The notes beneath the pieces were generated by a model. It saw only the letters and a list, made by a program, of their open reading frames with translations. It ran no database searches and had not been told where the DNA came from. A stretch of DNA of 64,000 nt, taken from Patescibacteria group bacterium (lineage in GTDB: Bacteria > Patescibacteriota > Patescibacteriia > 2-01-FULL-39-33). Shown one piece after another: positions 13,271 to 53,709 of the stretch; position 1 is the first letter of the stretch, and every line of letters starts with the position of its first letter. A program made the translations under genes and the position numbers. The DNA lies in contig JBAZKF010000001.1 of assembly GCA_041650895.1 (NCBI GenBank), forward strand, positions 145,685-209,684. Reading direction: 5' to 3'.

Positions 13271-13302
13271 ATTTTTTAACGATAAATATATAATCTGATT
13301 AA

Positions 13303-15409: not shown

Positions 15410-16099
15410 CTACCGGCAAGCAGGCTCGCGGACAACCGCAAAACACCAGTCGCTACTGAAGTTACCCCCGAGCTTATCCATATCCAAACAGCGCCCCAAA
15501 CCAATCATACGAAGACAAGCAAAACCACGGCCGAAGGTAAACTCCAAAATTGAGCCCAAAGCGGCAATGGGAAATAGCCGTTGGAGTCCGGGTTGAGCCG
15601 CGCCCAACGCCAGGAGTTCTTCAATCTGAACGAAACGATAACGATAACCCGCTCCCCGACGCAACAACAAATCATTAACTTCTTTCAATTTGTCGATAAC
15701 CTGTTCGCCATTGTCAAAATTCTGACCAAAACAAAGCAACTCAACTATAATTTTTCGTTTGCCTGGTAGTGATCCCTTAATAATGCGTAACTGCTTGATG
15801 TCCGAATCTTCCCTGTCATAATGGCCAGCATAAATCATCTGTTCAATATTCTGACTAAGATCCACAACCACCTCGTAGCTGTTGACTGTATAAAGCAATA
15901 TAGCTTGCTTTGCAACGGTCTTAGCGTCACACACTTTGGCCATAACCAATTCGGCGATTTGCCGTCGCAGGCCACTGTCCGTCTCAATGAGACGAATCGC
16001 CTCGTCATCACCACCCAAGGACAGAATTTCGTCCGTCAGAGACTTCCAAATTTGCCACATAGTACCCAAGGCGCCCAAAAACTCACTCTTCTTTTTCAT
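15410..16099 (-). CDS. Hypothetical protein (no recognisable motif), independently transcribed
   Basis: ATG 16099 is preceded by GGGAGA and gives 229 aa (MKKKSEFLGALGTMWQIWKSL...). It has its own consensus promoter and its own terminator. The ORF track start at 16177 lies inside the promoter -10 region. Confidence 0.5.
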   Translation of the reverse strand: MKKKSEFLGALGTMWQIWKSLTDEILSLGGDDEAIRLIETDSGLRRQIAELVMAKVCDAKTVAKQAILLYTVNSYEVVVDLSQNIEQMIYAGHYDREDSDIKQLRIIKGSLPGKRKIIVELLCFGQNFDNGEQVIDKLKEVNDLLLRRGAGYRYRFVQIEELLALGAAQPGLQRLFPIAALGSILEFTFGRGFACLRMIGLGRCLDMDKLGGNFSSDWCFAVVREPACR

Positions 16100-16177
16100 G
16101 GTCTTTCTCCCATGCTGCGGCTTACCTCCTACTAGAGAACTATTCTCCAGCCTAAGGCCTACCAATGTACTGCACAC

Positions 16178-22524: not shown

Positions 22525-22968
22525 CTATCTCTTGAAAGTCCAGAAACGATTTAAACTGAAATTAAAAATAGCGACAATAAACGAAGAGACGGCTTTGGCC
22601 AACAAGTCTGGAATATGCACCAATTCGATCAATAAGCTCAAAAGGCATAAATTCAATGACAAACTTATAATATTGGCAACAAAAAATTTAGCATACTGCC
22701 ATTTCAAACCAGCGCTATGATGACGGAAGGTCCACTTGCGATTCAACTCAAAACTCCAGGTTACAGCCACAGCAAAAGAAATAATGGAAGCGACAAGATA
22801 GTGCAGACCGAATAGGCGGGTCATCAGCCAATAGACGCCCAAATCAACCAAAAAATTAGATGTGCCAACCAGGCAGAATTTGATAAACTGCCGGAACAGT
22901 GACTGTTTGAATAACGGCAACTGATAAATCCTTTCTTTTATCATTTTTAACATAAAAGTCAGAACCAT
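22525..22968 (-). CDS. GtrA family membrane protein
   Basis: FRQFIKFCLVGTSNFLVDLGVYWLM plus four TM helices. ATG 22968 was chosen because the TTG at 22992 lies upstream of the predicted -10 element. Confidence 0.75.
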   Translation of the reverse strand: MVLTFMLKMIKERIYQLPLFKQSLFRQFIKFCLVGTSNFLVDLGVYWLMTRLFGLHYLVASIISFAVAVTWSFELNRKWTFRHHSAGLKWQYAKFFVANIISLSLNLCLLSLLIELVHIPDLLAKAVSSFIVAIFNFSLNRFWTFKR

Positions 22969-22980
22969 TAACTTTATTCC

Positions 22981-23008
22981 ATTATAACACAAATCAAATT
23001 AAGTCAAA
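22981..23008 (-). promoter_or_regulatory. Putative promoter of the GtrA-like gene (divergent pair)
   Basis: On the minus strand: TTTGAC (23008-23003), a 16-nt spacer, then the extended -10 TGtTATAAT (22989-22981). The leader would be very short. Confidence 0.45.
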
Positions 23009-29254: not shown

Positions 29255-30682
29255 CTATTTAAGGACGTTTTTAAAAATGTTAAGTCCCAGCAGAATATCT
29301 TTCAAGTCTGCCAGGGACTTGATTTTTTTTAGCCGATAAATAATATATTTCGGACGTAAATAAAACTTAATAAAGGCTTTGCGTTTTAATTTCAGCAGGG
29401 TATCACTGCTTAAATCGGGCAAATCCATCGGCGGTATATGATTGGAGACTGAACAAAAATCACTCCAATCAAAATCTTTCCTGATGTATCCGCGAGCCTT
29501 TGCTTCTTCATACATGGGAGTTCCCGGATAAGGAATGGCAACAAAAAAGGCTGCTGTGTCCAGATCCAAGCTACAAGCAAAATCAATCGTCTGATTAACC
29601 GTCCAAGGATCTTCGTCAATATAACCAATAATGAATGCTCCGGAAACCAAGATGTCGTTTTTACGGCATAAGTCAACGGCTATTCTAGCTTGTTCCAGTG
29701 TGGCGCCCTTGCACATCTTATCTAAAATTCTCTGCGAGCCCGATTCAAAACCAAAACCGATCCTTTTACAGCCGGCCCGTCTCATTAACTTGAGCATTTC
29801 ATTATTTACCGAATCAACTCTGGCCATAACCACCCAAGAGATATCCAGCTTCCGCCGGATAATCTCTTCACAAAATTCCTTCACTCTATCTTTATTAGCC
29901 GTAAAGAGTTCGTCATGGAAATTAAAAGAAGTAGCCTGGTAATTTTTCATGCATTCTTCAATCTCGGCCAAAACATTACTCACACTCCTAGTACGATAGC
30001 GCCTTTTCCAAACTGATTCCGCCATGCAAAAACCGCAACGATAAGGACAGCCGCGGCCGGATATGATATTAATCGCCTGCCCCGAGTCCGTCGTTCTGGT
30101 CGGCGGCAAGTAATACTTTTCAACCGGCAATAAATCACGAGCCGGGAACGGTATGGTATCAAGATTATCAATCAGCGGGCGGGGTTCTGTTATTAATATT
30201 TCAGCATTATCGCGATAAGCGATGCCTTTAATCACCCCGAAATCGACTTGCTCGGATATTAAGGCGCGGATTAATTCCAAAAAAGTGACTTCCCCTTCGC
30301 CCAAGACGCAAAAATCTATTGCCGGCATACCCCGCATTGTTTCTTCGGCGGCAATTGTCGGATGTGGCCCGCCGACAATGATTTTTATTGCGGGATTAAT
30401 GACTTTTATCCGCCGCGTAATTTCTTTGAGTTGTTTATAGACAGGCGTGGGGAAAGTCAAAGCGATAAATTGCGGCATGATTTCCTTAATCTTTTCATCT
30501 ATCTGATCATAGGACATTTCCAATGCCTCACCGTCAAGAATTGTTATTTCTACTTCCTGTTCATATTGGCGCAAATAAGCCGCCAGATAAGCCAAATTAA
30601 GCGGAGCGGTTTTCCCACCCTGCCCTTCGATACCGTCATAATTAGTGAAAGGCGGATTAATCAATAAAAGTTTATACTTCAT
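29255..30682 (-). CDS. B12-binding-domain radical SAM enzyme (class B), paralogue rS2
   Basis: 475 aa. IVGGPHPTIAA...VLGEGEVTF, GRGCPYRCGFC, C-terminal FIKFYLRPKYIIYRL. Confidence 0.9.
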   Translation of the reverse strand: MKYKLLLINPPFTNYDGIEGQGGKTAPLNLAYLAAYLRQYEQEVEITILDGEALEMSYDQIDEKIKEIMPQFIALTFPTPVYKQLKEITRRIKVINPAIKIIVGGPHPTIAAEETMRGMPAIDFCVLGEGEVTFLELIRALISEQVDFGVIKGIAYRDNAEILITEPRPLIDNLDTIPFPARDLLPVEKYYLPPTRTTDSGQAINIISGRGCPYRCGFCMAESVWKRRYRTRSVSNVLAEIEECMKNYQATSFNFHDELFTANKDRVKEFCEEIIRRKLDISWVVMARVDSVNNEMLKLMRRAGCKRIGFGFESGSQRILDKMCKGATLEQARIAVDLCRKNDILVSGAFIIGYIDEDPWTVNQTIDFACSLDLDTAAFFVAIPYPGTPMYEEAKARGYIRKDFDWSDFCSVSNHIPPMDLPDLSSDTLLKLKRKAFIKFYLRPKYIIYRLKKIKSLADLKDILLGLNIFKNVLK

Positions 30683-31653
30683 AAGTCGGTCTTTTTAAAA
30701 AAATTCTTTACGGGTAAAAAAATAGCAATTAAAATTAATAAATAAGCGAGACTAAACAAATGTACTATGAAACCAGAAATAATAGACGCTTCCTTATTTA
30801 AGCCTAATAGTCCGAAGCTGATAGCCCAACCTGTTTCATAAGTTCCGAAGTCCCACAATCCCTGGATAGGCAAAAAACTTATTAATTGACTAAAAATCAA
30901 ACCCAGAGTTACTTTAAGCCAGTTAAAATCTATATTTAGGGCACGGAAAAAAACTACGATCATTAAAGAAGCGGACGCCAGCCACAAGAACGAAATCAAC
31001 AAATTAGTCAAGTAAACGGGCCAGGAACGAATTGTTTTGACGCTTGTTGCAACCTCTTCCAACTTAGTAGCCAGCTTAGCGCCAAATTGAAATTTAGTCA
31101 ATCTTGCCCAATGCATTAAAATAACAACCGCTTTAACCAGCCAATCAAGGTAGAATAATATGGCAATCGTGGCTAACCCAAGCATAAAACAGCTTAGATA
31201 GATTCTATTAGGCGGAATGTAGCCGGGGTTAAGCAAAATAAAACCGATCAGAAAAGAAAAAGCCACTGCCAAAAGATCAAAAAATCTGGCTACCAACAGG
31301 ACACTAAGCCCTTCTGCTATGGCTACATTCTCACGTTTTTTTATGAAATAAACAAAACTTAACTCACCGCTTCTAAACGGCATTAAATTACAAAAAAAAG
31401 TATAACCCAAAGTAATTTTCAAGGAACTCAAAAAACTTATTTTCTTAGAAAGAATCAAGACTTGCCAGCGCCAAGCCCGCAAACAAACGCCGATAAAATA
31501 AAAAATAAACGCGATTAAAGCGTAAGTCCATGATATATTTGAAATAATATCCCTGGCTTGAGTGAAATCAATCTGAGTTAAAAGCAAACACAATAAAATT
31601 ATGGTTACGGCCAAGGAGATTGTTTTTTTGCGCTTGGTTATCTTTTTCAACAT
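30679..31653 (-). CDS. UPF0104 / lysylphosphatidylglycerol-synthase-TM-region (flippase-like) family membrane protein
   Basis: 324 aa with about 8 TM helices. Includes LRAWRWQVLI and FCNLMPFRSGELSFVYF. Start and stop overlap the neighbouring genes (ATGA, TAATG). Confidence 0.65.
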   Translation of the reverse strand: MLKKITKRKKTISLAVTIILLCLLLTQIDFTQARDIISNISWTYALIAFIFYFIGVCLRAWRWQVLILSKKISFLSSLKITLGYTFFCNLMPFRSGELSFVYFIKKRENVAIAEGLSVLLVARFFDLLAVAFSFLIGFILLNPGYIPPNRIYLSCFMLGLATIAILFYLDWLVKAVVILMHWARLTKFQFGAKLATKLEEVATSVKTIRSWPVYLTNLLISFLWLASASLMIVVFFRALNIDFNWLKVTLGLIFSQLISFLPIQGLWDFGTYETGWAISFGLLGLNKEASIISGFIVHLFSLAYLLILIAIFLPVKNFFKKTDL

Positions 31654-33488
31654 TATTTTATCAAGTTAAGAAACCACATCTTGCCGGGACTGGTTTCAGC
31701 TTCTATTATTCCCGCCTGAGGCCAATCGACAATGTTTATCGCTTGGCTACTGGAGGAAATCTGCCCCGCTAATTCAGCATCATAACCAATTATATATTTT
31801 ACATTATAAACGTCAAAAGCCGACTGAAGTTTTTGCTCCTGCAATAAATGGTTGATAGTATTCGGAGAAAAATAGACAGTTGATACTCCGGTTAAATAAT
31901 TCAACAGAGGATGCAATGACCTATTGCCTACGGCCACCGCCTCTTCCGGTTTGATGGCGACACCCCAAGAACTGATTTGCTCAGCTGAATAAGCAATTTT
32001 CAAATTTATATTATTATCATATCCCCGGCCCCAATAGACATGATTAGCCTGGACTAAGCCATAAATGATTAAAAGAATAATCACCCCGCCGGCCAGCCGA
32101 CTAAATCTCTTTGCAACATAATAATCGCTGATCATCTTAGCTAAGCTCATCAAGCCCAGACTGATAAAAAGAGCAATCACCCAACCCCAATCCATTAAAT
32201 GATTGCGTGAGGCCAGAACGACGTAACTGGAAATAAAAATAGAAAACACCAGCCAACTGACAAAAAGATTGGTTAGATTCTTGTCTCGACGACTCAAGTC
32301 TTTAATACCCAATAACATTAAAATAAAAAACAGTGATCCGCCAATATACTCCAAGGCGAGAAATCGAGAAAGATGCGCCAGCAGATTATTGGATCCGACA
32401 AGAGCCCGCTCCGCCAAATTGATGGGGCGTATGCCGATATTGGCCCCCACCTTAATCAAGTCAATGCTCTTCAATAATCCTCGACCAGCTATGTCGGAAT
32501 TAAATTTGTCTAAAACCGTTTTCTGATCAAAATAAAAAGTATAGGGATCGGGGAAAAGATGGCCGTAAAAATTAAACTCAGACCAATTATTGGTTTGCGT
32601 CTCGCTGGCAAAAAACACCCTGAAATAATCATTATTACCGCTAAAACCGAATATCGCCGGCAACCAGAAAAAAGCTAATATTACAAAAAAAGGAACAAAC
32701 ACCAAACTGATGTTTCCAAGACTGCTTTTGACGGCATTGTTCCTTAAACCGGTTAAGACGGTTTTAAAACGTAACCAAATCAATCGGAAAAAAGACAAAT
32801 CCGTACGGGAATCGATAATAAGGGGTTGCTCTGAGGACTGAAAAATCAACCAAAAAAATAAAACTGGCGGAAATAAGAACATCACTTCCCGCGACAGGCA
32901 AGCTAGCGACAAAAAGACTCCGGACAAAGGCAGAAAAAAATATCTGCCCTTGACTTTACGGCCGATAAAAAACAAAACGCAAAAAACTGAAAAATACAGC
33001 ATCGCGAATTCGTAGGTGCCGATAGTTTGAACCATCTGGGAATTAAACGGCAATAAGATATAAACCAAAGAAAATATTGCGGCTATTTCCCAATCAAACA
33101 AATAAAACACGACGGCCGCAAATAAAACCAAAGCCAATGCCTGAATAATTACGGCAATGACTATTAAAGTGTTGAAATCTGGCAAGCCGATCAACTGAAA
33201 TAATGCAGCATAAGACCAGGTAGTAAACTTATTGCCCTGGGTACTGAGCTGAGCCCGCTGGCTGACTAAAGACGGCGCCAAAACGACATTGCGGCTGTCC
33301 TCCATGCCGTAAACCCCCGTTTGGACAAGATTCCTGGCCAAAATAAAATTCTCCGCTTCGGCCGGTTGGGCAGTACTGCCCTTAAAAAAAACCGGAAAAT
33401 ACCAAAAACCGGCTGCAACAAAAAAAACTACGGGCAATAAAACAAAAAGAATCGAGCTCTTAAACCTAAAATTTGGCTGTTGCGACAT
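31653..33488 (-). CDS. GT-C-like (ArnT/PMT_2-like) polytopic membrane glycosyltransferase, putative
   Basis: 611 aa with more than 12 TM helices. It has an acidic first loop, AEAENFILARNLVQTGVYG, and a C-terminal soluble segment of about 100 aa. Confidence 0.5.
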   Translation of the reverse strand: MSQQPNFRFKSSILFVLLPVVFFVAAGFWYFPVFFKGSTAQPAEAENFILARNLVQTGVYGMEDSRNVVLAPSLVSQRAQLSTQGNKFTTWSYAALFQLIGLPDFNTLIVIAVIIQALALVLFAAVVFYLFDWEIAAIFSLVYILLPFNSQMVQTIGTYEFAMLYFSVFCVLFFIGRKVKGRYFFLPLSGVFLSLACLSREVMFLFPPVLFFWLIFQSSEQPLIIDSRTDLSFFRLIWLRFKTVLTGLRNNAVKSSLGNISLVFVPFFVILAFFWLPAIFGFSGNNDYFRVFFASETQTNNWSEFNFYGHLFPDPYTFYFDQKTVLDKFNSDIAGRGLLKSIDLIKVGANIGIRPINLAERALVGSNNLLAHLSRFLALEYIGGSLFFILMLLGIKDLSRRDKNLTNLFVSWLVFSIFISSYVVLASRNHLMDWGWVIALFISLGLMSLAKMISDYYVAKRFSRLAGGVIILLIIYGLVQANHVYWGRGYDNNINLKIAYSAEQISSWGVAIKPEEAVAVGNRSLHPLLNYLTGVSTVYFSPNTINHLLQEQKLQSAFDVYNVKYIIGYDAELAGQISSSSQAINIVDWPQAGIIEAETSPGKMWFLNLIK

Positions 33489-33497
33489 AATTTAGAG

Positions 33498-34586
33498 TTA
33501 CTTTAAATGAAAATTCCCAAAAACCGCCCTAAACAAATGCCAAGGGCTCATCATAATATTAGGAAGTTGATAACAATAATGAGTACACCAACATTTCTTA
33601 TTCTTAATATCTAACCGTTGCTGTTTCGCAAGGGATGACTGCCAGGCCTTTCTAAAATCATAATCATAATCCCGCAGATTACCTATCTTGGGCAACATTT
33701 CGCAATTATACATATTACCCCAAGCGTCAATAACGGGGAAAAATAAAGCTGAGCGGCAAGGTAGGATTTGTTTTTTTTGCTTCATTATTTTTAATGCTAT
33801 CTTATGGTAATAAGCATAAAACAGCTTATTGGCCAAATCATTGGCCAATGTCTTACTCTTGAATAAAACACGGCTAAGCAATTCCTCATATTGCCCCAAA
33901 TCTACGGGTGCGATTTTTTGCGGGTCAAACGAACCGCGGATTACTTCAATCGTATGATATGTGATGCCGGGATGCTGATCAACAAAATCAATCACCGCGG
34001 CGATATTATCTTGGTTTACATTAGAAATAGTGGTATTAACACTGACCTGCAACAACTCATTAGTCTTAGCGATAGCCGTCAATTTCTCATACGTATCCAA
34101 AAAAAGCTTAAAGTTTCCAGCTATTCCTCTTACCCGATCATGCACCTCTCCGATTCCGTCCAGAGATAGGACTACTTTTAGTTTTATTGGCACGCGAACC
34201 AGTATCCTTTCGACTTGATCCGCTATCTTATCCGGCAAAAGACAATTAGTCGGTATGGCAATTTTTCTAGTGGCGCTGCAACGGTAAAAAATCTCGCAAA
34301 TTTCCGGCAAATCCGGCCGCAAAAACGGTTCACCTCCACCCAAAGTAACGCTTCTTATGTCGCCAATGGTTTGGGTAAATTTTTCTATTTCCGCTAAAGA
34401 AAGCTCCTTAGTTTCCGTGTTTATCACTTGCCAGTTAAAACACATTAGACAACGGGAGTTGCACTTGTTGGTTACTTGAAAAATTAATCCGTAAAGCGGC
34501 CATTCCCTTTTTGATAAAGAATAGAAATAGAACTTGCTTACAGGAAAATATTGTTTAATTATTTTTAATCGTTTAATAAAATCCAT
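33498..34586 (-). CDS. Radical SAM enzyme with Cys-rich SPASM/twitch-like C-terminus (no B12 domain)
   Basis: 362 aa. VTNKCNSRCLMC (CX3CX2C), GGGEPFLRPD, C-terminal LPCRS...YNCE...KKCWCTHYC. Confidence 0.8.
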   Translation of the reverse strand: MDFIKRLKIIKQYFPVSKFYFYSLSKREWPLYGLIFQVTNKCNSRCLMCFNWQVINTETKELSLAEIEKFTQTIGDIRSVTLGGGEPFLRPDLPEICEIFYRCSATRKIAIPTNCLLPDKIADQVERILVRVPIKLKVVLSLDGIGEVHDRVRGIAGNFKLFLDTYEKLTAIAKTNELLQVSVNTTISNVNQDNIAAVIDFVDQHPGITYHTIEVIRGSFDPQKIAPVDLGQYEELLSRVLFKSKTLANDLANKLFYAYYHKIALKIMKQKKQILPCRSALFFPVIDAWGNMYNCEMLPKIGNLRDYDYDFRKAWQSSLAKQQRLDIKNKKCWCTHYCYQLPNIMMSPWHLFRAVFGNFHLK

Positions 34587-34589
34587 AAA

Positions 34590-35546
34590 TTAATCTAGAT
34601 TAAATAACTGCTCTAATTGGTTATTGCTGATCTTTTTTAATCGGCTATTCCTCATTCTGGCATGAAAAATATCAAATGAATTAATAATTATGGAGACAAG
34701 GCTTTTCATAAAGGGCTGGAGATCGGCGGGTTGTCTAAGGCAATGGGCGATATTAAAACGGATATTAAGAGGCAATGATCTGATCAAAAGCAATGCCGGA
34801 TAATTCCTTAGCATAATCAATAGCCGATTACGCATCCACAGGTAGACCGTCCGCTTATTGCCTATTGTCTTATTTACGGTCACGCTCAAACCATGATAGC
34901 TAACGCTGTTTGGCTGATAAACAACTTGATATCCGGCAATATTAACCCTCAACGACAAATCAGTATCTTCATAACCATGATAATATTTTTCGCAGAAACC
35001 ACCGATTTTCTCCAAAACACTGCGCCTGATAATCATGGAAGCGCTACAGGCATAAAGAACCTGCCGACGCTGATTATATTTTGGATCGCTTGATTCTGCG
35101 CCAATACCAATATCATAGCCTTTACCGCGAAACAATATACTACCGCCGGCAGCAGCGATTTTTTCCGGCATACCAGCGAAAAGAATCTTACCTACAGCCT
35201 GGCCGACATTACCATTTGAATCCATTAATCGCACCATCTCAGCCAACCAGGTTTTAGAAAGAACGGCGTCATTATCCATAGTCACTACATATTCAGCTCG
35301 GCCGGAATCAATCCCTTTATTACGCGCCGCCGCCGGACCCAGGTTAGCCTTATTCTCAATAACGGTAATTCCAGGATAGTGCCGTCGAAAATAATCCACT
35401 GAGTCATCCGGAGAATGGTCATCAACCAAAATAATATTATAGTCAATATACGTTGAATCCAACAAAGAGTCAAGGCATTTCGCGGTCAATTCCTTGTTCT
35501 TGTAATTACAAACCACAATATCAATTTTGGGATTAATTTGATTCAT
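34590..35546 (-). CDS. Glycosyltransferase family 2
   Basis: 318 aa. IDIVVCNYKN, ILVDDHSPDDS, NLGPAAARNKG, TMDNDA. Confidence 0.85.
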   Translation of the reverse strand: MNQINPKIDIVVCNYKNKELTAKCLDSLLDSTYIDYNIILVDDHSPDDSVDYFRRHYPGITVIENKANLGPAAARNKGIDSGRAEYVVTMDNDAVLSKTWLAEMVRLMDSNGNVGQAVGKILFAGMPEKIAAAGGSILFRGKGYDIGIGAESSDPKYNQRRQVLYACSASMIIRRSVLEKIGGFCEKYYHGYEDTDLSLRVNIAGYQVVYQPNSVSYHGLSVTVNKTIGNKRTVYLWMRNRLLIMLRNYPALLLIRSLPLNIRFNIAHCLRQPADLQPFMKSLVSIIINSFDIFHARMRNSRLKKISNNQLEQLFNLD

Positions 35547-45034: not shown

Positions 45035-47599
45035 TTAATCATTGATATAAACCGCTTTGCAACATCTGGAACAAATCGGTAACGAATGCTTGAATAAATA
45101 TTGACGGAATTTTTGGTAATCATTGGACAGCCAAATCTCATCAGGAGTCTTATCCAATAAGCTCCCGAAAGATTTTTCAATGATATCGCACCAAACAACT
45201 TCGCCACGCTGATTAATGCGCAACTCGGGCTGCAATAATTTCAAACAAAAAGGCCGGGACGGTTTCTGACCCAAATACTGCGGTAAGTTATGATAATAAT
45301 TCAACGGAGAGAAATTAACAAAACAGCCAGTCTTAAGTCCGTACAATCTGATTTTAGCCAATTTTTTCTTCAACTCTACGGCGTCAGTATCAGGAGGAAA
45401 AATAGGATCCCTAATCTGCGTATTAAGGCGGTAATCGCGGCCCTCTTCCCAGCCAAACTCCCGATTAAAAATACTCTTGGCTTGAGCTACGTCGGCAGAT
45501 GAATAAACTTGCTCAAATAAGACATTAATTGTTGTAATGCCTAATTTTTTAGTGGTATCAATCAATTCAAAAAATTTATCTACATTATCATTAATTAACA
45601 AGGTGGCGAAAATGGTAATAGGAACTTTAGGCATTTTGGCCTGCAAAAGCTTAATGGCCCGCTCCAACCGATCAAAAGTACCCGGTACGCCCCTAATAGC
45701 GTCATGTAACTCCTTGGGACCGTCCAGCGAGGTTAGAATATCAGTCAGATGCTTATAACCCGCTAATTGATCAATATTACGCTCATTAATAAGCGTACAG
45801 TTAGTTTGAAGGATTACCCGTTTACCGAGAGAATCCCAAAAAGCAATAAGCTGCAAAATATCTTGGCGGGCGAATGGTTCGCCGCCGACTAATTTTATTT
45901 CTTCCACCTGGCTGGACATTTTTTTAAACACCTCAAGAATCTGTTCAGCTGACAATTCCTGCTGGCGTAAATTCCTATTCTCTCCTTGATAACACATCTT
46001 ACAACGCAAATTGCATCTGATGGTCGGTTCATAGCCGACTTCATAAACTAGCGGGGACTCGGTTTGAAAAGGCAGAGCCGGCGCTTGAATAAATTTTTTA
46101 ACCCTGATAATCGCCAACCTATTCCGCCGCCAATCATAAAATATTTTTGCCAGCGGAGAGATTATTGGCACGGCTTTTACCGCTTTTTTAAGCTGATGCT
46201 TATTATTTTTCAAATAAGTTAAGAATAATCCGCAATCATAAACTAAAGGCGAAAAGAAAAAGACATAAACCGGCAGGCGATAACGCGCCAAGACAAAGGG
46301 CGAGACCATCAAAGCGGTATACAGAATTATCATCACTGCAAAAATGAAAAATAGCAGTTTATCCCGATCTTTAAAATAAGAATAAATTAAGGCGATAGCC
46401 AAGGCCAGAGAACTAATACCCCATAAAGCAACACCGGCCAAATAAGTTAATAGTTTAAGATTAATCTGTTTGATGAAGTCAAAAATTCCCTGCCAGTTGC
46501 CATTCAAGATAAATCCGGTGATATCCGGTTTAGAAAACTCCCCAGTGCAAGCCGACCACATCTCGAAGTATCCGGGCTGAAAAAAGAAAGGTATTGTCCT
46601 AATCAGATGAACCTTAAGATAGCCGCCCAGATTGCCTAATATATAAGCCTTGGCCGTTTGACTGTAATAATCCAGCTCGCGATTGAATTCAGATAAGCTG
46701 ACTGACAGGCAATCGCCTTGATTGCCGATATTTTTCCCCAGAGCGCTATCGGCTTGCCGGACAATAAGATTATAAGCATCAGCGTAAGGAATTTGTCTCT
46801 GATAAGAGATCAGCGCTGGCAGATTATAAAAATAAATATTAGTATCAAATAGATTGACCAAAGCCGGCCGATTATAAACAACCTTATTCCTAATAATGAT
46901 CGGCGAAATCACCGCAAAAAATACAATCATGAAAGCAACACAACTTAACAAAATCTTGCGCCAACTCAACTTCGCCAATCCGCCGGTCGGTACGAGTTTC
47001 CGAACCAAATAAACTAAAACAAGACCGGCTGGAAATATTAAAAGCAAGGGGGAAGTATTTTGCCTAGCTAATGTTGAAATGCCGAGCCAAAAAGCGCTCA
47101 GCAACAAATCCCTGCTCTTAGCGCTGGAGAAAAATTTCAAAAAATAATATGTGCCGCCTAAAAATAACGGGATGGCCAAATTCTCGCTGACCAACAAAAA
47201 ATTATGCCAAGCCCAATAAGGTTCAATGGCAATCAAAAAAGTAACCAACAAAGAAATCTTCTCGTTAAAAAACAAGCGAACCAGCTTATAGCCGATGATT
47301 AAGGTCACGAAAGCCAAAACTACTTGCGCCAAATAAATCGTCCATTCCCCTCCCAACCAATGCAATAAGACCGAAGTCGTCAAGTAATACAATGGCGGAT
47401 GCCAATCACAGTAATCGTGAAAAATACCCAATAAAACAGAAACAGCCGGCTGAGCCTGGTTATAAAAATTCTGCCAACCGCCTTTATTTAAGCTGGCCTG
47501 CCAAAAAGTGATAAAAATTGAAATACGCACCGCCAGAAAAGCGGCGACAATGACCAGCCATGACCGATATTTAAAAACGATATTTCTTATATTTGACAT
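45035..47599 (-). CDS. Fusion protein: N-terminal GT-C/PMT_2-like polytopic membrane domain + C-terminal radical SAM/SPASM domain
   Basis: 854 aa. Residues 1 to about 480 are roughly 12 TM helices with DWHPPLYYLTTSVLL (a PMT_2-type motif). Residues from about 510 onward contain EPTIRCNLRCKMC (CX3CX2C), VGGEPFARQD, and a SPASM-like tail FCL...GEVVWCD...FGSL...EIW...PICSRCC. Confidence 0.8.
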   Translation of the reverse strand: MSNIRNIVFKYRSWLVIVAAFLAVRISIFITFWQASLNKGGWQNFYNQAQPAVSVLLGIFHDYCDWHPPLYYLTTSVLLHWLGGEWTIYLAQVVLAFVTLIIGYKLVRLFFNEKISLLVTFLIAIEPYWAWHNFLLVSENLAIPLFLGGTYYFLKFFSSAKSRDLLLSAFWLGISTLARQNTSPLLLIFPAGLVLVYLVRKLVPTGGLAKLSWRKILLSCVAFMIVFFAVISPIIIRNKVVYNRPALVNLFDTNIYFYNLPALISYQRQIPYADAYNLIVRQADSALGKNIGNQGDCLSVSLSEFNRELDYYSQTAKAYILGNLGGYLKVHLIRTIPFFFQPGYFEMWSACTGEFSKPDITGFILNGNWQGIFDFIKQINLKLLTYLAGVALWGISSLALAIALIYSYFKDRDKLLFFIFAVMIILYTALMVSPFVLARYRLPVYVFFFSPLVYDCGLFLTYLKNNKHQLKKAVKAVPIISPLAKIFYDWRRNRLAIIRVKKFIQAPALPFQTESPLVYEVGYEPTIRCNLRCKMCYQGENRNLRQQELSAEQILEVFKKMSSQVEEIKLVGGEPFARQDILQLIAFWDSLGKRVILQTNCTLINERNIDQLAGYKHLTDILTSLDGPKELHDAIRGVPGTFDRLERAIKLLQAKMPKVPITIFATLLINDNVDKFFELIDTTKKLGITTINVLFEQVYSSADVAQAKSIFNREFGWEEGRDYRLNTQIRDPIFPPDTDAVELKKKLAKIRLYGLKTGCFVNFSPLNYYHNLPQYLGQKPSRPFCLKLLQPELRINQRGEVVWCDIIEKSFGSLLDKTPDEIWLSNDYQKFRQYLFKHSLPICSRCCKAVYIND

Positions 47600-49068: not shown

Positions 49069-49764
49069 TTAAAAACGATATTTAATCAGGGTCCAAATAG
49101 CAATTAAACCGTCGCGAAGTTTTATCTTTTTACCTTCTTCTTGCGAGCGGGGAATATAGGAAATCGGCACTTCATGAATCTTAACGCCCTGCCGAGAAAT
49201 CTTGGCTGTTATTTCCGGACAGAATTCAAAACCCTTGGCTTCAATATTTATCTTATCCAAAACTTGTTTGCTGACCATTTTATAGCAAGTCGCCTCATCT
49301 GTTATGGCAGTGCCGTAAAGAAAATTAGTCAACCAAGTCAGATAGACTCCACCCAAATAATAAAACCAGCCGGCCTTAGGACTTTTCTTTCTGGTCAATC
49401 CTAAACGCCTAGAACCATAAACCGCTTGAGCGCCGCATTCTTCTGCTTCATTTATCAATCTTTTCAGATCATTGGGATTATATTCTAAATCAGCATCCTG
49501 AACGACAGCATAATCGCCGGTTGACACTTTGTAACCGGCAGCTACGGCCGCGCCCTTGCCTTGATTTTCAGGCAGATGGATAATGATATATTTATCCTGA
49601 TAGCGATCAAGCACTTCTCGGGAATTATCGGTGGAACCGTCATTGACTATAATAATTTCTTTGTTAACGCCTAAATCAGCTTCCGACAATTTTTGTAAAA
49701 TAGCCCCGATGGTTTTTGCTTCGTTGTAGGCCGGAATAACAATGGAAAGTTTATTGATTTTCAT
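49069..49764 (-). CDS. Glycosyltransferase family 2, polyprenyl-phosphate sugar synthase-like (231 aa, paralogue of 57163..57858)
   Basis: LSIVIPAYNEAKTI, IIVNDGSTDNS, NQGKGAAVAAG, VQDADLEYNP, and C-terminal EEGKKIKLRDGLIAIWTLIKY. Confidence 0.85.
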   Translation of the reverse strand: MKINKLSIVIPAYNEAKTIGAILQKLSEADLGVNKEIIIVNDGSTDNSREVLDRYQDKYIIIHLPENQGKGAAVAAGYKVSTGDYAVVQDADLEYNPNDLKRLINEAEECGAQAVYGSRRLGLTRKKSPKAGWFYYLGGVYLTWLTNFLYGTAITDEATCYKMVSKQVLDKINIEAKGFEFCPEITAKISRQGVKIHEVPISYIPRSQEEGKKIKLRDGLIAIWTLIKYRF

Positions 49765-50434: not shown

Positions 50435-51553
50435 TTATGAATTAATGAAAGAGACGATTTTTTCAGCGCGCTTCTTCCAAGTATATTTTTCCGCATCGCT
50501 CCGGGCGCAACGAGAGATATTCTCGGCTAATTGCCGTTGCGTCAAAGCCCGGTTAATGCCCGCCGCTAAAAGATCAGAATTATCCGGCTCAACTAAAATA
50601 GCATTATTATCATTTAAAATTTCCCTCAAAGAAGGCAAATTAGAAGCGACTATAGGTACGCCACTGGCTAAATATTCAAAAAGTTTAAGCGGTGAAGTAT
50701 AAAATTGCGATATTTTTTCCTGCCCGGAATTAGGCAAAACCAAAACATCAGCGGCCTTCAGATAGAACGGGATTTGCTTATGCGGCTGATGGCCGAGAAT
50801 TAAGACATTAGCGCTATTGACATTTTTTTTCTTAAAAGCTTCAACATCTTCCTTAGTACCGCCGATAAAAACAACCAGGGATTCATTAGACAGATACCGG
50901 GCGGCTTCAGCCAAAACCTGCGCTCCTTTCCAACCATAAAGATGGCCGGTGTAAACAATCAATTTTTTATCCAACGGCAAATTAATTTTTTTCCTGGACT
51001 CCGTGGCGGTAATATTCAGATCAAACTCAGCCAAATCAACGCCATCGGGAGCAATTAATATTTTATCAGCAGCGATTCCGTTGCTGGCCAGAGCGGATTT
51101 AATAAAATCAGTCAGAACAACAATCCGTTGAAAACACCGCCAAAAAAGACGATGATACGATTTGATTGTTGCAGGCAAGGAGTGAAGTTCCAAAAAAGAC
51201 GATTTAAAAAATAAGCCGAACTGTTCTTCGCGTGTATATATAATATCATACTCCCTGAAAGACACGTAGATTCTGCTGGCTAACAAAAAAGTTGCAGTCG
51301 CCAGCCAAAAAGCCAGATTACCAATTGTTTTATCCAAAAAAATCAAATCTAAACAGGGTAATTCGGTAATCTTAAAATTAGCCGGTAAACCGTAATAGTT
51401 GAAGGGATCGGCTTTAAGATTATTAGAACGCCGCGGTACCACCAATTCAACTTGATGACCCAAAACAGAGAAAGTCTCGCACATTTTCATGATTTGCCAG
51501 CCATGAGCCTTCTCGGTCGGTATTCTGATGTTTGCCAAATAAATTATTTTCAT
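50435..51553 (-). CDS. Glycosyltransferase family 4
   Basis: ATG 51553 (MKIIYLANIRIPTEKAHGWQI) forms an ATGA overlap with the upstream stop. C-terminal KLFEYLASGVPIVASN...EILNDNNAILVEP. Confidence 0.85.
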   Translation of the reverse strand: MKIIYLANIRIPTEKAHGWQIMKMCETFSVLGHQVELVVPRRSNNLKADPFNYYGLPANFKITELPCLDLIFLDKTIGNLAFWLATATFLLASRIYVSFREYDIIYTREEQFGLFFKSSFLELHSLPATIKSYHRLFWRCFQRIVVLTDFIKSALASNGIAADKILIAPDGVDLAEFDLNITATESRKKINLPLDKKLIVYTGHLYGWKGAQVLAEAARYLSNESLVVFIGGTKEDVEAFKKKNVNSANVLILGHQPHKQIPFYLKAADVLVLPNSGQEKISQFYTSPLKLFEYLASGVPIVASNLPSLREILNDNNAILVEPDNSDLLAAGINRALTQRQLAENISRCARSDAEKYTWKKRAEKIVSFINS

Positions 51554-53709
51554 TTTTTTGTTTTTACTAAATAACACATTTGATGGCCGAACATATTAGG
51601 CCAAATATCTTTAAGACGAAAACCATTAGACGATTTAAATCTAACAACATCTAGACCCAAATCATTCAGCCAAATCAAAAAATCCTTATGGCTCCAAAAC
51701 CGCAGGTGTTCTGACGGATGTGTCATCCATTGGGTAAAAAATCTTCCTCCAAACATTAAGCCGAAACGATAACGGTAAAAAGCGGAATTAGGAACTGAAA
51801 TTGCCAAATAGTCGGCATTATCTTTTATTTTAGAGATTAAATCCTCGGGATATTTGATGTGTTCCAAAACCTCTGAAATCACAATGTAATCATATCGGTC
51901 GTCCAAATTAAAATCAGCGCTCTCGATATCGGCTTTTACTCCGTCAATGCCGGCTTGCTTTAAGTTATTGATTACTAATCCGGAAATATCCAAACCACTG
52001 ACCCGGCAACCCTTCTTTTCTTTTAATTCATAAGGCAGACGCGAACTGCCACAGCCAAGATCCAGAATTTTAGCTCCGGGCTTAATCCAATCCATAAAAA
52101 TCACTTCCCTTTCCATTAATTTGCTACGCATCTTGAAGCCGCGCTCTGACCAATACTGATCATAATCAAGTTGTTTGGTGATATTTTTGAAATCAGGGCG
52201 ACGCGTACCCTCAAAGAAGAACGATTTCGAGACGCGAGCTATGATTTTGTCAAAATAATACTTAAGCGCGCGCTTGACTTTGAATAATATAAAATCTAAA
52301 CGCTCTTTTTTGTTACCCAACTTAAGCCAGATTTTTGCCAGCTTCAAAAAGTGGGTTAAGCCTCTCTTTTTTACGCCCTCAAATATCTCCTGACGCCAAC
52401 TCTCAAATAATTTTCCCAACTCCTGGGAATCACTGACGCCAGAACGATTGAATTTGTCCTGGCTTTGGAAAAAAGAGAAATTACAATAATCGGAGGTATT
52501 GATACGACCCTTAAAAAAATCATTAAAAAGCTTCGTCCCTGGCAGGGCGGTAAAGATACTGAAAGAATAATGATCAGCTTTGATTTTCTTGGCGAATTCA
52601 AAGGTTTGCCGCATTTCTTCTTTAGTTTCGCCGGGCAGGCCGATCATAAAGCCGGCTTCGCGACGGATGCCGTGTTTCCGGCAAAGTTCCAGGGCTTTTT
52701 CCACATCGGATAATTTTATCCTTTTATTAATGATTTCATCTAAAACGCGCTGATTACCCGATTCAACGCCAAAATCAAGCTGTAAACAGCCACTTTCGGC
52801 CATTAACTTGATGATTTCTTCATTAACCAAATCCACTCGCGATTGAGCCCCCCAATACAGACCGGCTTCCTTCATAATCTGGCAAACCTTCCTAACATGA
52901 TCGTAATTAGCCGTTAAGGTATCATCAGCAAACCAAATTCCTTCAACGCCATATTTATCCCTTAAAAGATAGATTTCTTTTTTGATGTTTTCCAAACTGC
53001 GATAACGCACCTGACGCCCAAAAACCTGATTGCAGGCGCAAAAAGTGCAGCTGTAGGGACAGCCCCGGGAAGCCATAACCATCACCGCTTTCATAGGGAT
53101 GCCTCGGATAATATCGTCCCAGATCTTAGTATAGTAGGTCATATTCACCTTATCATAAGCCGGCAAGCTTAAATCAGTCAGATCCATATACTCCCGCCGT
53201 TCATTGATGACAACTTCATTATTCTGATCCGGCCAGGCGATGCCCTTCACCTTCCTTAGATCGGGCGACTCCTGCTGTAATTCCTTAATTAATTCAAAAG
53301 TAGTTTGTTCGCCTTCGCCGATAATGGCGGCATCAAAGCCGGAATTAACTACGCCAATCGGATCGGCTGTAGCTTGAGGCCCGCCGATAATCGAAAAAAC
53401 TTTGAGTTCTTTTTTAATCCTCTGATTCATTTCCACAGCTTCGGCAATTTCCATGGTCGTGGCAGTAAAACCGATTACTTGCGGCTTAAACTCTAAAACA
53501 GCCTTAATGATCTCCTCCTTGGCTCTTTCACGATTATCGTATTGATAGCCTCTGTCCGCGAATATTTTCCCGTCGATAATCAAATTATCAAAACCATGAT
53601 CCCGCAAATATCCGGAAATATACATCAAACCCAAAGAATAACGATGCTCCTTGAGCCGTTTAGGGGGAAGAATAAAAATCAAATCTTTATCTTGGCTAAT
53701 TTTTATCAT
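51550..53709 (-). CDS. Fusion protein: B12-binding-domain radical SAM (paralogue rS8) + C-terminal class I SAM methyltransferase domain
   Basis: 719 aa. IIGGPQATADP...IIGEGEQTT and SRGCPYSCTFC are followed, from about residue 520, by KILDLGCGSSRLPYEL...YDYIVISEVLEHI (methyltransferase motifs I-III). Confidence 0.85.
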   Translation of the reverse strand: MIKISQDKDLIFILPPKRLKEHRYSLGLMYISGYLRDHGFDNLIIDGKIFADRGYQYDNRERAKEEIIKAVLEFKPQVIGFTATTMEIAEAVEMNQRIKKELKVFSIIGGPQATADPIGVVNSGFDAAIIGEGEQTTFELIKELQQESPDLRKVKGIAWPDQNNEVVINERREYMDLTDLSLPAYDKVNMTYYTKIWDDIIRGIPMKAVMVMASRGCPYSCTFCACNQVFGRQVRYRSLENIKKEIYLLRDKYGVEGIWFADDTLTANYDHVRKVCQIMKEAGLYWGAQSRVDLVNEEIIKLMAESGCLQLDFGVESGNQRVLDEIINKRIKLSDVEKALELCRKHGIRREAGFMIGLPGETKEEMRQTFEFAKKIKADHYSFSIFTALPGTKLFNDFFKGRINTSDYCNFSFFQSQDKFNRSGVSDSQELGKLFESWRQEIFEGVKKRGLTHFLKLAKIWLKLGNKKERLDFILFKVKRALKYYFDKIIARVSKSFFFEGTRRPDFKNITKQLDYDQYWSERGFKMRSKLMEREVIFMDWIKPGAKILDLGCGSSRLPYELKEKKGCRVSGLDISGLVINNLKQAGIDGVKADIESADFNLDDRYDYIVISEVLEHIKYPEDLISKIKDNADYLAISVPNSAFYRYRFGLMFGGRFFTQWMTHPSEHLRFWSHKDFLIWLNDLGLDVVRFKSSNGFRLKDIWPNMFGHQMCYLVKTKK

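What the first reader, a model, noticed from the sequence alone, without database searches (positions are those of the whole stretch)
45035..47599. Single 854-aa polypeptide fusing a GT-C-type polytopic membrane glycosyltransferase domain to a radical SAM/SPASM domain
The N-terminal ~480 aa is a multi-TM domain with the PMT_2/ArnT-type motif DWHPPLYYL. The C-terminal ~340 aa has CNLRCKMC, a GGEP SAM-binding motif and a SPASM-like auxiliary-cluster tail (C...GEVVWC...FGSL...EIW...CSRCC). GT-C enzymes act on polyprenyl-phosphate-linked sugars at the outer face of the membrane. Radical SAM domains need cytoplasmic reductant and SAM. A covalent fusion therefore implies radical chemistry performed directly on a membrane-embedded (lipid-linked) substrate and coupled to its transfer. 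I am not aware of a characterised example of this domain combination.
Basis: partly seen in the sequence, partly recalled or inferred. Interest (0 to 1): 0.78.

Follow-up and report, generated by a model that had tools for sequence, protein, structure and literature searches.

The report
Membrane glycosyltransferase fused to radical-SAM enzyme
A real but rare single protein from an uncultured groundwater-type (CPR) bacterium joins an outward-facing membrane sugar-transferase to an inward-facing radical-chemistry enzyme, inside a huge cell-surface sugar-polymer gene cluster, which suggests that lipid-carried sugars are chemically remodelled by radical enzymes before being attached outside the cell.

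Summary

The fusion is not an artefact. Orthologues at 45-84% identity on independent contigs are fused, the linker is under purifying selection, and an independent contig is 100% identical across the junction. It is rare: 2-3 of 1.84 billion representative proteins. The commoner states are adjacent separate genes, GT2~GT-C fusions and GT2~GT-C~rSAM triple fusions, always in the order GT2, GT-C, rSAM.

Best reading (inferred): a Gtr/Arn-like module in which GT2 makes a polyprenyl-phosphate sugar, the Twitch rSAM (often with a B12-rSAM) tailors it in the cytoplasm, it is flipped, and GT-C transfers it outside. No characterised example was found. The host operon carries 10 B12-radical-SAM genes.

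The parts
45035..47599 (-). Whole fusion gene: 854 aa plus stop codon, GT-C glycosyltransferase joined to a Twitch-type radical SAM enzyme
   Evidence: ORF list and translation; Pfam; AF2 model with pLDDT 93.5 and pTM 0.83
46205..47599 (-). GT-C domain, aa 1-465. It has 10 TM helices (12-37, 86-108, 113-132, 139-159, 162-178, 185-198, 213-242, 381-409, 412-432, 438-465) and a helical outside domain (aa 243-380)
47384..47419 (-). First outside loop motif H61-x2-C64-D65-W-H-P-P-x-Y-Y (aa 61-72). D65 is the putative catalytic acid/base
   Evidence: H61, C64, D65, W66, H67, P68, P69 and Y71 are invariant in 32/32 homologues; Y72 is 97% conserved
46046..46204 (-). Cytoplasmic linker, aa 466-518. 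It is Lys/Arg-rich and has two helices (467-476, 480-505). It corresponds to the native N-terminus of the stand-alone rSAM proteins
   Evidence: Junction comparison with the split locus L006; dN/dS 0.17; 11 K/R against 1 D/E in aa 466-510
45350..46045 (-). Radical SAM core, aa 519-750, with GGE (572-574) and the conserved residues S624, D626, G627 and R636
45992..46015 (-). CX3CX2C motif (C529, C533, C536) for the SAM-binding [4Fe-4S] cluster
   Evidence: Conserved in 93-94 of 93-95 aligned sequences
45038..45349 (-). Twitch-type auxiliary-cluster tail, aa 751-854. It has a C785-x13-G-x4-C804 hairpin and C843-x2-C846-C847, then 7 residues to the end
   Evidence: Cys conservation. All family members end 5-11 aa after CxxCC. 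The only PDB match of the tail profile is BtrN, E 4.5e-7
49069..49764 (-). GT2, 231 aa, a putative polyprenyl-phosphate sugar synthase. It is the orthologue of the GT2 domain fused to the GT-C in relatives
   Evidence: Pfam/NCBIfam similarity to AglJ, ArnC and PpgS, all below cut-off; 55-60% identity to the GT2 domains of P0008-10, P0014, P0025 and P0028
47611..49050 (-). B12-binding radical SAM gene lying between the GT2 and the fusion; a recurrent companion of the module
   Evidence: Pfam; synteny in L001, L006, L008, L014 and L016
43672..45021 (-). Downstream B12-binding radical SAM gene (true start probably the ATG at 45021)
   Evidence: Pfam; start analysis; orthologues of 449-451 aa
38217..39551 (-). 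Wzx-type flippase of the surrounding glycan operon
   Evidence: Pfam Polysacc_synt and Polysacc_synt_3
30679..31653 (-). Flippase-like membrane protein (LPG_synthase_TM / TIGR00374), a candidate flippase for a lipid-linked sugar
   Evidence: Pfam 111 bits; NCBIfam 53.5 bits against a cut-off of 43.2
22525..22992 (-). GtrA-family small membrane protein, a candidate polyprenyl-P-sugar flippase
   Evidence: Pfam GtrA_DPMS_TM 112.9 bits
23051..24400 (+). Initiating phosphoglycosyl transferase (Bac_transf) of the glycan cluster
   Evidence: Pfam 228 bits

Best explanation
The gene encodes a bifunctional inner-membrane protein that belongs to a three-part glycan-decoration module (GT2, GT-C, Twitch radical SAM). 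The module is embedded in a Wzx-dependent surface-polysaccharide operon of a Buchananbacteria-like Patescibacterium. Proposed mechanism: (1) the small cytoplasmic GT2 (49069-49764) loads a sugar from a nucleotide sugar onto polyprenyl phosphate. (2) At the cytoplasmic face, the C-terminal radical SAM domain uses its SAM cluster and a single Twitch-type auxiliary [4Fe-4S] cluster to abstract a hydrogen atom from that lipid-linked sugar and remodel it. Possible reactions, by analogy with BtrN, HygY, BlsE and DesII, are oxidation, epimerisation, decarboxylation or deoxygenation. The neighbouring B12-radical SAM enzyme may add a further modification such as C-methylation. (3) The modified polyprenyl-P-sugar is flipped. 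(4) The N-terminal GT-C domain, with its invariant Asp65 loop on the outer face, transfers the sugar onto the exported glycan or another acceptor. Fusion tethers the soluble radical enzyme to the membrane beside the enzyme that consumes its product. Shown here: both folds, the conserved catalytic motifs, the predicted topology, the reality and recurrence of the fusion, and the conserved gene order. Inferred: the substrate, the chemistry, the order of steps and the flipping step.

For: Topology. There are 10 TM helices. Predicted inside loops carry 18 K/R against 2 D/E, and outside loops 12 against 14. So the rSAM domain is cytoplasmic and the GT-C loop is outside.

Reality of the fusion. Fused orthologues occur at 84, 81, 52, 51, 48 and 49% identity, and triple fusions at 45-50%, on independent contigs. 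A 100%-identical fragment on a separate JGI contig spans the junction. dN/dS is 0.06 overall and 0.17 in the linker.

Functional linkage. Of 14 loci examined, 12 are fused or immediately adjacent in the order GT2, GT-C, rSAM. All three fusion combinations exist: GT2~GT-C, GT-C~rSAM and GT2~GT-C~rSAM. Fused forms sit in at least 4 places on the GT-C tree.

Glycan rather than peptide context. The operon is tightly packed with GT4/GT2/GT9 genes, Wzx, Bac_transf and deacetylases, and leaves no room for a precursor peptide. More distant members of the same rSAM clade are fused to Wzx, GT4, GT28 and B12-rSAM domains.

Precedent. Three-component GT-C systems are known in which auxiliary enzymes modify the lipid-linked donor (PMC11127046). 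The ArnC/ArnD/ArnT and decaprenyl-P-ribose to arabinose pathways are further precedents (established knowledge).
Against: There is no biochemical evidence for the substrate or the reaction. The GT2 matches polyprenyl-P-sugar synthases (AglJ, ArnC, PpgS) only below the family cut-offs. No flippase is adjacent to the module; the candidates lie 6-25 kb away. The nearest structural neighbours of the rSAM domain include as many peptide-modifying enzymes (SkfB, anSME, SuiB, ChlB) as sugar-modifying ones (BlsE, DesII, BtrN). Some relatives keep the rSAM unlinked from any GT-C (L010, L014, L019; distant Acidobacteriota and Chloroflexota homologues). Distant relatives are fused to cytoplasmic GT4 or to Wzx, which fits a Und-PP-oligosaccharide substrate just as well.
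Confidence: 0.5

Rival explanations
1. Same protein and same pathway, but the radical SAM domain acts on the Und-PP-linked oligosaccharide repeat unit (or on a nucleotide sugar) at the cytoplasmic face, not on the monosaccharide donor of the GT-C. On this reading the fusion only anchors the enzyme in a membrane-bound glycan-assembly complex.
For: Distant clade members are fused to cytoplasmic GT4 and GT28 enzymes and to a Wzx flippase, all of which handle Und-PP-linked intermediates. In several loci the rSAM is not next to a GT-C. The operon has a complete Bac_transf/GT4/Wzx pathway.
Against: Within this subfamily the gene order GT2, GT-C, rSAM is almost invariant. The GT2 that fuses to the GT-C is of the small type resembling polyprenyl-P-sugar synthases. 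The triple fusion GT2~GT-C~rSAM is most simply read as one donor-making, donor-modifying and donor-using unit.
Confidence: 0.28
2. The C-terminal domain is a peptide or protein maturase, as most SPASM/Twitch enzymes are. It would modify a protein substrate, for example the acceptor protein later O-glycosylated by the PMT-like GT-C.
For: The best structural and sequence neighbours include SkfB, anSME, SuiB, CteB and ChlB. PMT_2 is named after protein O-mannosyltransferases.
Against: There is no room for a precursor-peptide gene: gaps are 18 nt or less, apart from one of 63 nt. No RiPP recognition element, protease or transporter is present. All neighbours are glycan-assembly genes. Fusion partners across the clade are glycan enzymes. 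There is no N-terminal peptide-binding domain, because the rSAM core begins about 50 aa after the last TM helix.
Confidence: 0.08
3. The fusion is an artefact, i.e. a frameshift, a missed stop or a chimeric assembly joining two adjacent genes.
For: In relatives the two genes overlap in an A-rich, indel-prone stretch or are separated by a single in-frame stop, so one error could create a fusion.
Against: At least 9 distinct fused proteins at 45-84% identity come from different samples and assemblers. The orthologues at 81% and 84% have exactly the same length. A 100%-identical independent contig spans the junction. The linker is under purifying selection. The AF2 model is confident through the linker, with pLDDT 86-95.
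Confidence: 0.02
4. The radical SAM domain modifies the lipid itself (the polyprenyl carrier or a membrane lipid), as lipid-acting rSAM enzymes such as GDGT-MAS/Tes and HpnH do. The GT-C part would serve mainly as the membrane anchor or lipid-binding module.
For: There are sub-threshold similarities to HpnH (72 bits) and to GDGT-MAS. The domain is permanently membrane-tethered.
Against: These similarities are generic to the SPASM/Twitch subfamily. The GT-C catalytic motif is invariant, which argues for an active transferase. The context is glycan assembly, not lipid synthesis.
Confidence: 0.05

Closest known systems
Three-component extracytoplasmic glycosylation systems (GtrA/GtrB/GtrC; ArnC/ArnD/ArnEF/ArnT; PPPRS + MATE flippase + GT136 with auxiliary epimerase, PMC11127046; the mycobacterial decaprenyl-P-ribose to arabinose pathway)
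   Same: These systems have a cytoplasmic GT2-type polyprenyl-phosphate sugar synthase and a polytopic GT-C that uses the flipped lipid-linked sugar outside. In Arn, DprE1/E2 and the GT136 systems, an auxiliary enzyme modifies the sugar while it is lipid-linked. The window's module has the GT2 and the GT-C, and candidate flippases lie in the same operon.
   Different: Here the auxiliary enzyme is a radical SAM (Twitch) enzyme covalently fused to the GT-C, often accompanied by a B12-radical SAM enzyme. No known system uses radical SAM chemistry at this step. The flippase is not adjacent, and the donor sugar and acceptor are unknown.
Twitch-type radical SAM enzymes acting on carbohydrates (BtrN 2-deoxy-scyllo-inosamine dehydrogenase; BlsE cytosylglucuronate decarboxylase; also HygY and SpeY, from general knowledge)
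   Different: Those enzymes are soluble and act on small soluble antibiotic intermediates. Sequence identity is only 15-20%. This protein has an extra fifth conserved Cys (C847) and is membrane-tethered in a cell-surface glycan operon.
GT-C glycosyltransferases of the PMT_2/ArnT type (Pfam PF13231; solved examples ArnT 5F15, Pmt4 9E61, AglB 3WAJ)
   Same: They share the GT-C fold and an acidic residue in the first outside loop flanked by short juxtamembrane helices. The PMT_2 profile match is above its cut-off.
   Different: There are only 10 TM helices, so the C-terminus is cytoplasmic, and there is no C-terminal periplasmic domain. Instead a helical insertion of about 140 aa sits between TM7 and TM8. 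No sequence-level match to any solved GT-C was found, and identity in structural alignments is 11-13%.
GT2~GT-C fusion proteins of Patescibacteria (for example P0025, annotated 'Glycosyl transferase family 2' in Ca. Falkowbacteria GW2011_GWC2_38_22)
   Same: The GT-C subfamily is the same (38-50% identity), the GT2 is orthologous, and a Twitch rSAM lies adjacent or in the same cluster.
   Different: The fusion partner sits at the N-terminus (the donor synthase) rather than at the C-terminus (the rSAM). These proteins are also uncharacterised.

Membership tests
GT-C fold glycosyltransferases | Polytopic membrane protein (8-13 TM helices) with the conserved N-terminal GT-C helical module | tested here: met
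GT-C fold glycosyltransferases | Conserved acidic catalytic residue in the first extracytoplasmic loop | tested here: met
   D65, within H61-x2-C-D-W-H-P-P-x-Y-Y, is invariant in 32/32 homologues. The loop is predicted to lie outside from the helix count and charge bias.
GT-C fold glycosyltransferases | Uses a polyprenyl-phosphate-linked sugar donor | not testable with these tools
   This is only inferred, from the fold, from conserved outside Arg/Lys residues (R179, K357, R439, R441) and from the linked GT2.
Pfam PMT_2 (PF13231) | Profile score above the curated gathering cut-off | tested here: met
   The target scores 33.4 bits against 26.1. Homologue P0152 scores 54.1 bits.
ArnT (GT83) or protein O-mannosyltransferase (GT39) proper | Sequence-level relatedness to characterised or solved members, and their 13- or 11-TM architecture with an outside C-terminal domain | tested here: not met
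   A profile search of the PDB sequences found no GT-C at E<10. The protein has 10 TM helices, a cytoplasmic C-terminus and no C-terminal outside domain.
Radical SAM superfamily | CX3CX2C cluster motif, GGE SAM-binding motif and partial TIM-barrel core | tested here: met
SPASM domain (two auxiliary [4Fe-4S] clusters) | Seven-Cys motif CX9-15GX4C ... CX2CX5CX3C ... C | tested here: not met
   Only the first half of the motif (C785-x13-G-x4-C804) and CX2CC (843-847) are present. The protein ends 7 aa later, and all 85 family members end 5-11 aa after CxxCC. The Pfam SPASM profile still scores 30.4 bits on the shared part.
Twitch domain (one auxiliary cluster) | Beta-hairpin Cys pair plus a downstream CxxC that ligate a single cluster | tested here: met
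   The tail profile matches only BtrN in the PDB (E 4.5e-7). The hairpin Cys residues and the CxxC are aligned, and the AF2 model shows short strands at 782-809. Actual cluster content cannot be tested with these tools.
Three-component (Gtr/Arn-type) glycan decoration system | Polyprenyl-phosphate sugar synthase (GT2) genetically linked to the GT-C | tested here: inconclusive
   A 231-aa GT2 lies two genes upstream and is fused to the GT-C in relatives. Its matches to AglJ, ArnC and PpgS are all below the family cut-offs.
Three-component (Gtr/Arn-type) glycan decoration system | Dedicated flippase for the lipid-linked monosaccharide | tested here: inconclusive
   A GtrA-family gene (22525-22992) and a flippase-like TIGR00374 gene (30679-31653) are in the cluster but not adjacent to the module.
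RiPP maturase systems built on SPASM/Twitch rSAM enzymes | Adjacent precursor peptide gene and a peptide-recognition domain | tested here: not met
   Intergenic gaps are 18 nt or less (one of 63 nt), and all neighbours are glycan enzymes. There is no N-terminal recognition domain.

The most novel reading that the evidence does not exclude
The fusion, and especially the GT2~GT-C~rSAM triple fusion in relatives, is a self-contained 'make, radically remodel, flip and transfer' machine. On this reading, radical SAM chemistry is performed on a polyprenyl-phosphate-linked monosaccharide at the membrane surface, and the GT-C domain itself (or the fused assembly) passes the modified lipid-linked sugar across the membrane without a separate flippase. 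Together with the 10 B12-radical SAM enzymes of the operon, this would build a hyper-modified (for example multiply C-methylated) surface glycan of a kind not yet described in any bacterium.
Probability: 0.15. Interest if true: 0.85.

Novelty: new variant of a known kind. Interest (0 to 1): 0.6.

Why it matters
Radical SAM enzymes are known to tailor sugars in soluble antibiotic pathways. They are not known to act on lipid-linked sugars during cell-surface glycan assembly. This module is found as two genes, as two kinds of double fusion and as a triple fusion. That gives a clear, testable prediction of such chemistry, and a compact three-protein system to reconstitute. It also marks a whole clade of Twitch-type radical SAM enzymes that is repeatedly fused to glycan machinery (GT-C, GT4, GT28, Wzx). 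Finally, it points to unusually heavy radical tailoring of the envelope glycan in CPR/Patescibacteria, with 12 radical SAM genes in one operon. These are organisms whose surfaces mediate their episymbiotic lifestyle and whose glycans are chemically unknown.

Tried and rejected
- The plus-strand reading of the stated coordinates is full of stops, so the gene is on the minus strand.
- Simple Kyte-Doolittle hydropathy undercounted TM helices. I used the AF2 helices instead.
- A profile search of PDB sequences with the N-domain found nothing. Only structure comparison identified the fold.
- Foldseek with the full model returned only rSAM hits, so the N-domain was modelled separately.
- The genome scan with the patchy full-length alignment A1 failed and was repeated with the C-domain alignment A3.
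- The AFDB50 fold library was unavailable, so I could not check whether UniProt/AFDB holds the architecture.
- Model coordinates are not exposed. I therefore could not measure Cys-Cys distances, a possible C64-C297 disulfide, or the orientation of the rSAM active site.
- The linker helix is not markedly amphipathic (muH 0.30-0.38), so I make no claim about an in-plane membrane helix.
- The hhalign comparison of the 611-aa membrane protein with the GT-C profile was not significant. Only a sub-threshold PMT_2 hit supports it as a second GT-C.
- Seven literature searches found no paper on a GT-C/radical SAM fusion, on radical SAM action on polyprenyl-linked sugars, or on CPR glycan clusters rich in radical SAM genes. 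A 2026 review of lipid-modifying rSAM enzymes has no occurrence of polyprenyl, undecaprenyl, transmembrane or fusion in its main text.
- I rejected the RiPP-maturase and assembly-artefact readings for the reasons given under the rival explanations.
Full report
**1. Observation**

The coordinates 45035..47599 hold one uninterrupted ORF of 854 codons with an ATG start, but on the minus strand. The plus-strand frame is full of stops.

Pfam finds three domains, each above its curated cut-off:
- PMT_2 at residues 67-218 (33.4 bits, cut-off 26.1)
- Radical_SAM at 523-681 (85.1 bits)
- SPASM at 790-846 (30.4 bits, cut-off 21.5)

NCBIfam gives only sub-threshold similarities to AhbD, NirJ, HpnH, sactipeptide maturases and MoaA, so the protein belongs to no named equivalog family. 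The 173-nt overlap with the next gene comes from longest-ORF calling. That gene most probably starts at the ATG at 45021, which matches the 449-451-aa orthologues.

**2. Is the fusion real?**

Yes. A search of 5.8 billion proteins found the following:
- full-length fused homologues at 84% and 81% identity, both exactly 854 aa (the latter annotated 'MAG: radical SAM protein [Candidatus Buchananbacteria bacterium]')
- further fused homologues at 48-52% identity (825-852 aa)
- proteins of about 1,080 aa at 45-50% identity that carry an additional N-terminal GT2 domain

These lie on independent contigs from different samples, within syntenic operons. A 508-aa fragment that is 100% identical and spans the junction sits on a separate 2.1-kb JGI contig. 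Against the 81% orthologue, dN/dS is 0.064 for the whole gene and 0.169 for the linker (aa 455-520), with dS near saturation. The frame across the junction is therefore maintained by selection. An AlphaFold2 model is confident throughout (mean pLDDT 93.5, pTM 0.83; linker blocks 86-95).

**3. How common is the fusion, and how does it arise?**

It is rare. An exhaustive phmmer scan of 1.84 billion 50%-identity representatives gave only two full-length fused representatives (P0152 at 857 aa, and the triple fusion P0010) plus one fragment. Among GTDB species representatives, only two Ca. Buchananbacteria genomes have it.

The dominant forms are:
- a stand-alone rSAM of about 386 aa (>100 clusters at 45-67% identity, mostly Patescibacteria)
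- a stand-alone GT-C of about 470 aa
- a GT2~GT-C fusion of about 700 aa

In split loci the two genes overlap by 4-32 nt in different frames (L006, L013, L016, L035, L037, L038). Otherwise they are separated by 5 nt (L036) or by a single in-frame stop (L017). At the junction the target reads straight from the last TM helix into the Lys-rich native N-terminus of the rSAM (…KNNKHQLKKAVKAVP…AKIFYDWR against L006's MNKKLLKKIIRKIP…AKVFYDWR).

On a neighbour-joining tree of the GT-C domain, fused forms occur in at least four separate places, interleaved with split forms (the tree has no support values). Split relatives are as close to the target as other fused ones. So fusion and fission have happened repeatedly. 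This is the classic signature of proteins that work together.

**4. Anatomy**

Invariant residues cluster on the predicted outside:
- H61, C64, D65, W66, H67, P68, P69 and Y71 in loop 1
- E126/P127
- R179/N181
- N249, T253, N254, N259
- C297
- K357
- R439/R441

D65 is the expected catalytic acid of a GT-C. The basic residues are candidates for binding the donor phosphate (inference).

*Topology.* Predicted inside loops carry 18 K/R against 2 D/E in 78 residues. Outside loops carry 12 against 14 in 203 residues. With an even number of helices, both termini are cytoplasmic.

*C-terminal half (aa 519-854).* C529/C533/C536, GGE (572-574), N600, S624/D626/G627 and R636 are near-invariant. Sequence and structure searches place it in the SPASM/Twitch branch:
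- profile against the PDB: SkfB 4.5e-26, BlsE 9e-19, CteB, anSME, PqqE, GDGT-MAS, MoaA
- Foldseek: the best target coverage is BlsE, at TM 0.70

The auxiliary region has only five near-invariant Cys (785, 804, 843, 846, 847). All 85 aligned family members end 5-11 residues after CxxCC, so the second-cluster motif of a true SPASM is absent. A profile of the tail matches only BtrN in the whole PDB (E 4.5e-7). The hairpin cysteines and the CxxC are aligned. I therefore read it as a Twitch-type domain with one auxiliary cluster. The actual cluster content is untested.

**5. Context**

From about 19.2 kb to the window's end (more than 44 kb) lies a glycan-assembly cluster. From 29255 to the window end it runs as one tightly packed minus-strand operon, with gaps of 18 nt or less apart from one of 63 nt. 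The cluster contains:
- Bac_transf, a GtrA-family protein, an NAD-epimerase and Wzx
- at least seven GT4, six GT2 and one GT9 genes
- two polysaccharide deacetylases, a FemAB-like protein and several SAM methyltransferases
- a flippase-like protein
- 10 B12-binding radical SAM genes (one of them fused to a MetW-like methyltransferase)
- two non-B12 radical SAM genes, including the target

The closest named organisms are Ca. Buchananbacteria.

Around the target, the order GT2(49069)-B12-rSAM(47611)-GT-C~rSAM is conserved in L001, L006 and L016. The core order GT2, GT-C, rSAM recurs in L035, L036 and L038, and L037 has the GT-C/rSAM pair without the GT2. Some of these loci have no B12-rSAM nearby. 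The GT2 domain of every GT2~GT-C or triple fusion is the orthologue (55-60% identity) of the window's GT2 at 49069-49764. That GT2 resembles polyprenyl-phosphate sugar synthases (AglJ 1e-28, ArnC 9e-20, PpgS 5e-16), though below their family cut-offs.

Of 14 loci examined, 12 have GT-C and rSAM fused or immediately adjacent. In the other two they are 5-7 kb apart in the same cluster.

**6. A wider clade tied to glycan assembly**

More distant relatives of the rSAM domain (about 30-33% identity, with the same short tail) are fused to other partners:
- a Wzx-type flippase (P0202)
- GT4 enzymes (P0205, P0282)
- a GT28/MurG-like domain (P0235)
- a B12-rSAM (P0212)

Together with the absence of any precursor-peptide gene, this argues that the clade acts on glycan intermediates, not on peptides.

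**7. Mechanism**

Known three-component systems provide the template. These include GtrABC, ArnC/D/EF/T, the decaprenyl-P-ribose epimerisation pathway and the GT136 systems with auxiliary epimerases (PMC11127046). A GT2 makes a polyprenyl-P-sugar, and an auxiliary enzyme may modify it while it is lipid-linked on the cytoplasmic face. The sugar is then flipped, and a GT-C transfers it outside.

The most economical reading is that the Twitch rSAM, often with a B12-rSAM, is that auxiliary enzyme. Fusion would then simply hold it at the membrane beside the GT-C. By analogy with BtrN, HygY, BlsE and DesII, the chemistry is probably hydrogen-atom abstraction from a sugar carbon, leading to oxidation, epimerisation, decarboxylation or deoxygenation. 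Which of these applies cannot be told from sequence.

I put about 0.5 on this specific model. I put about 0.28 on the variant in which the rSAM acts on the Und-PP-oligosaccharide or a nucleotide sugar, which the GT4 and Wzx fusions in distant relatives suggest. Peptide, lipid and artefact readings get small weights.

**8. Comparison and novelty**

Each half belongs to a known superfamily, and the overall logic matches known three-component systems. New here are a radical SAM enzyme in the donor-tailoring position and its covalent fusion to a GT-C. No characterised example turned up in the PDB, NCBIfam or seven literature searches. I class it as a new variant of a known kind.

The architecture already sits unannotated in public databases, for example as NCBI 'radical SAM protein'. 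The novelty is therefore functional, not a matter of first sighting.

**9. Verdict**

Interest is 0.6. The fusion itself is a rare evolutionary variant of a common gene pair. It does, however, point to an uncharacterised and experimentally tractable kind of chemistry (radical tailoring of lipid-linked sugars), and it sits in an operon with an extraordinary density of radical SAM enzymes.

Noticed in passing
window 27833-63990 (both strands): There is an extraordinary density of radical SAM genes in one glycan cluster. Ten are B12-binding radical SAM genes (27833+, 29255, 35551, 39562, 42255, 43672, 47611, 51550, 57874, 61568) and two are non-B12 rSAM genes, interleaved with GT4/GT2/GT9, Wzx, deacetylases and methyltransferases. 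None reaches any NCBIfam equivalog cut-off. The cluster is syntenic in several Patescibacteria (L001, L003, L004, L006). It suggests a heavily radical-tailored surface glycan in a lineage generally thought unable to make cobalamin.
   Followed up: partly
window 30679-35546 (-): This may be a second, unfused module of the same logic. It comprises a GT2 (34590-35546), a stand-alone rSAM with CX3CX2C, a C-x17-C hairpin and C-terminal Cys residues (33498-34586), and a 611-aa polytopic membrane protein (31653-33488). It ends with a flippase-like TIGR00374/LPG_synthase_TM protein (30679-31653). The membrane protein has only a sub-threshold PMT_2 hit (18.9 bits, cut-off 26.1), and its hhalign comparison with the GT-C profile was not significant.
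   Followed up: partly
window 51550-53709 (-): A 719-aa fusion of a B12-binding radical SAM enzyme with a C-terminal MetW-like class I SAM methyltransferase. It is conserved at the same length in L001 and L003, and in L006 the two parts are separate genes.
   Followed up: no
P0202, P0205, P0235, P0282, P0212: Distant relatives of the Twitch rSAM domain (about 30-33% identity, same short tail) are fused to a Wzx-type flippase, GT4 domains, a GT28/MurG-like domain, or a B12-rSAM. This is a broader set of uncharacterised glycan-machinery/rSAM fusions. Their genomic context was not examined.
   Followed up: partly
window 59352-61559 (-): A 735-aa GT4 whose Pfam domains cover only about residues 49-346. 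The C-terminal ~390 residues have no Pfam match. A 731-aa orthologue is present in L004.
   Followed up: no
L036 6043-8413 and L037 866-3216: In some relatives the GT2, GT-C, Twitch-rSAM trio has no B12-rSAM nearby. It sits beside dTDP-sugar enzymes (RmlC-like, RmlD-like), a DegT aminotransferase and Methyltransf_13/14-type sugar C-methyltransferases. This hints that the modified sugar may be a deoxy or amino hexose.
   Followed up: no
L017 4983-4985; L013, L016, L017 record titles: In L017 the GT-C and rSAM genes are in the same frame, separated by a single stop codon. The MAG is labelled 'uncultured Gammaproteobacteria', and L013 and L016 are labelled 'Saccharibacteria'. These bin labels may not be reliable given the otherwise Parcubacteria-type distribution.
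   Followed up: no
window 45035-45207: The longest ORF of the downstream B12-rSAM gene (GTG at 45207) overlaps the fusion gene by 173 nt. Orthologues and an ATG at 45021 indicate the real start lies 13 nt after the fusion's stop codon.
   Followed up: yes
window 6758-8620 (-), 15410-16177 (-), 12347-13312 (-): Three ORFs outside the glycan cluster (620, 255 and 321 aa) have no significant Pfam match. The 321-aa one has only weak thioredoxin-like hits.
   Followed up: no
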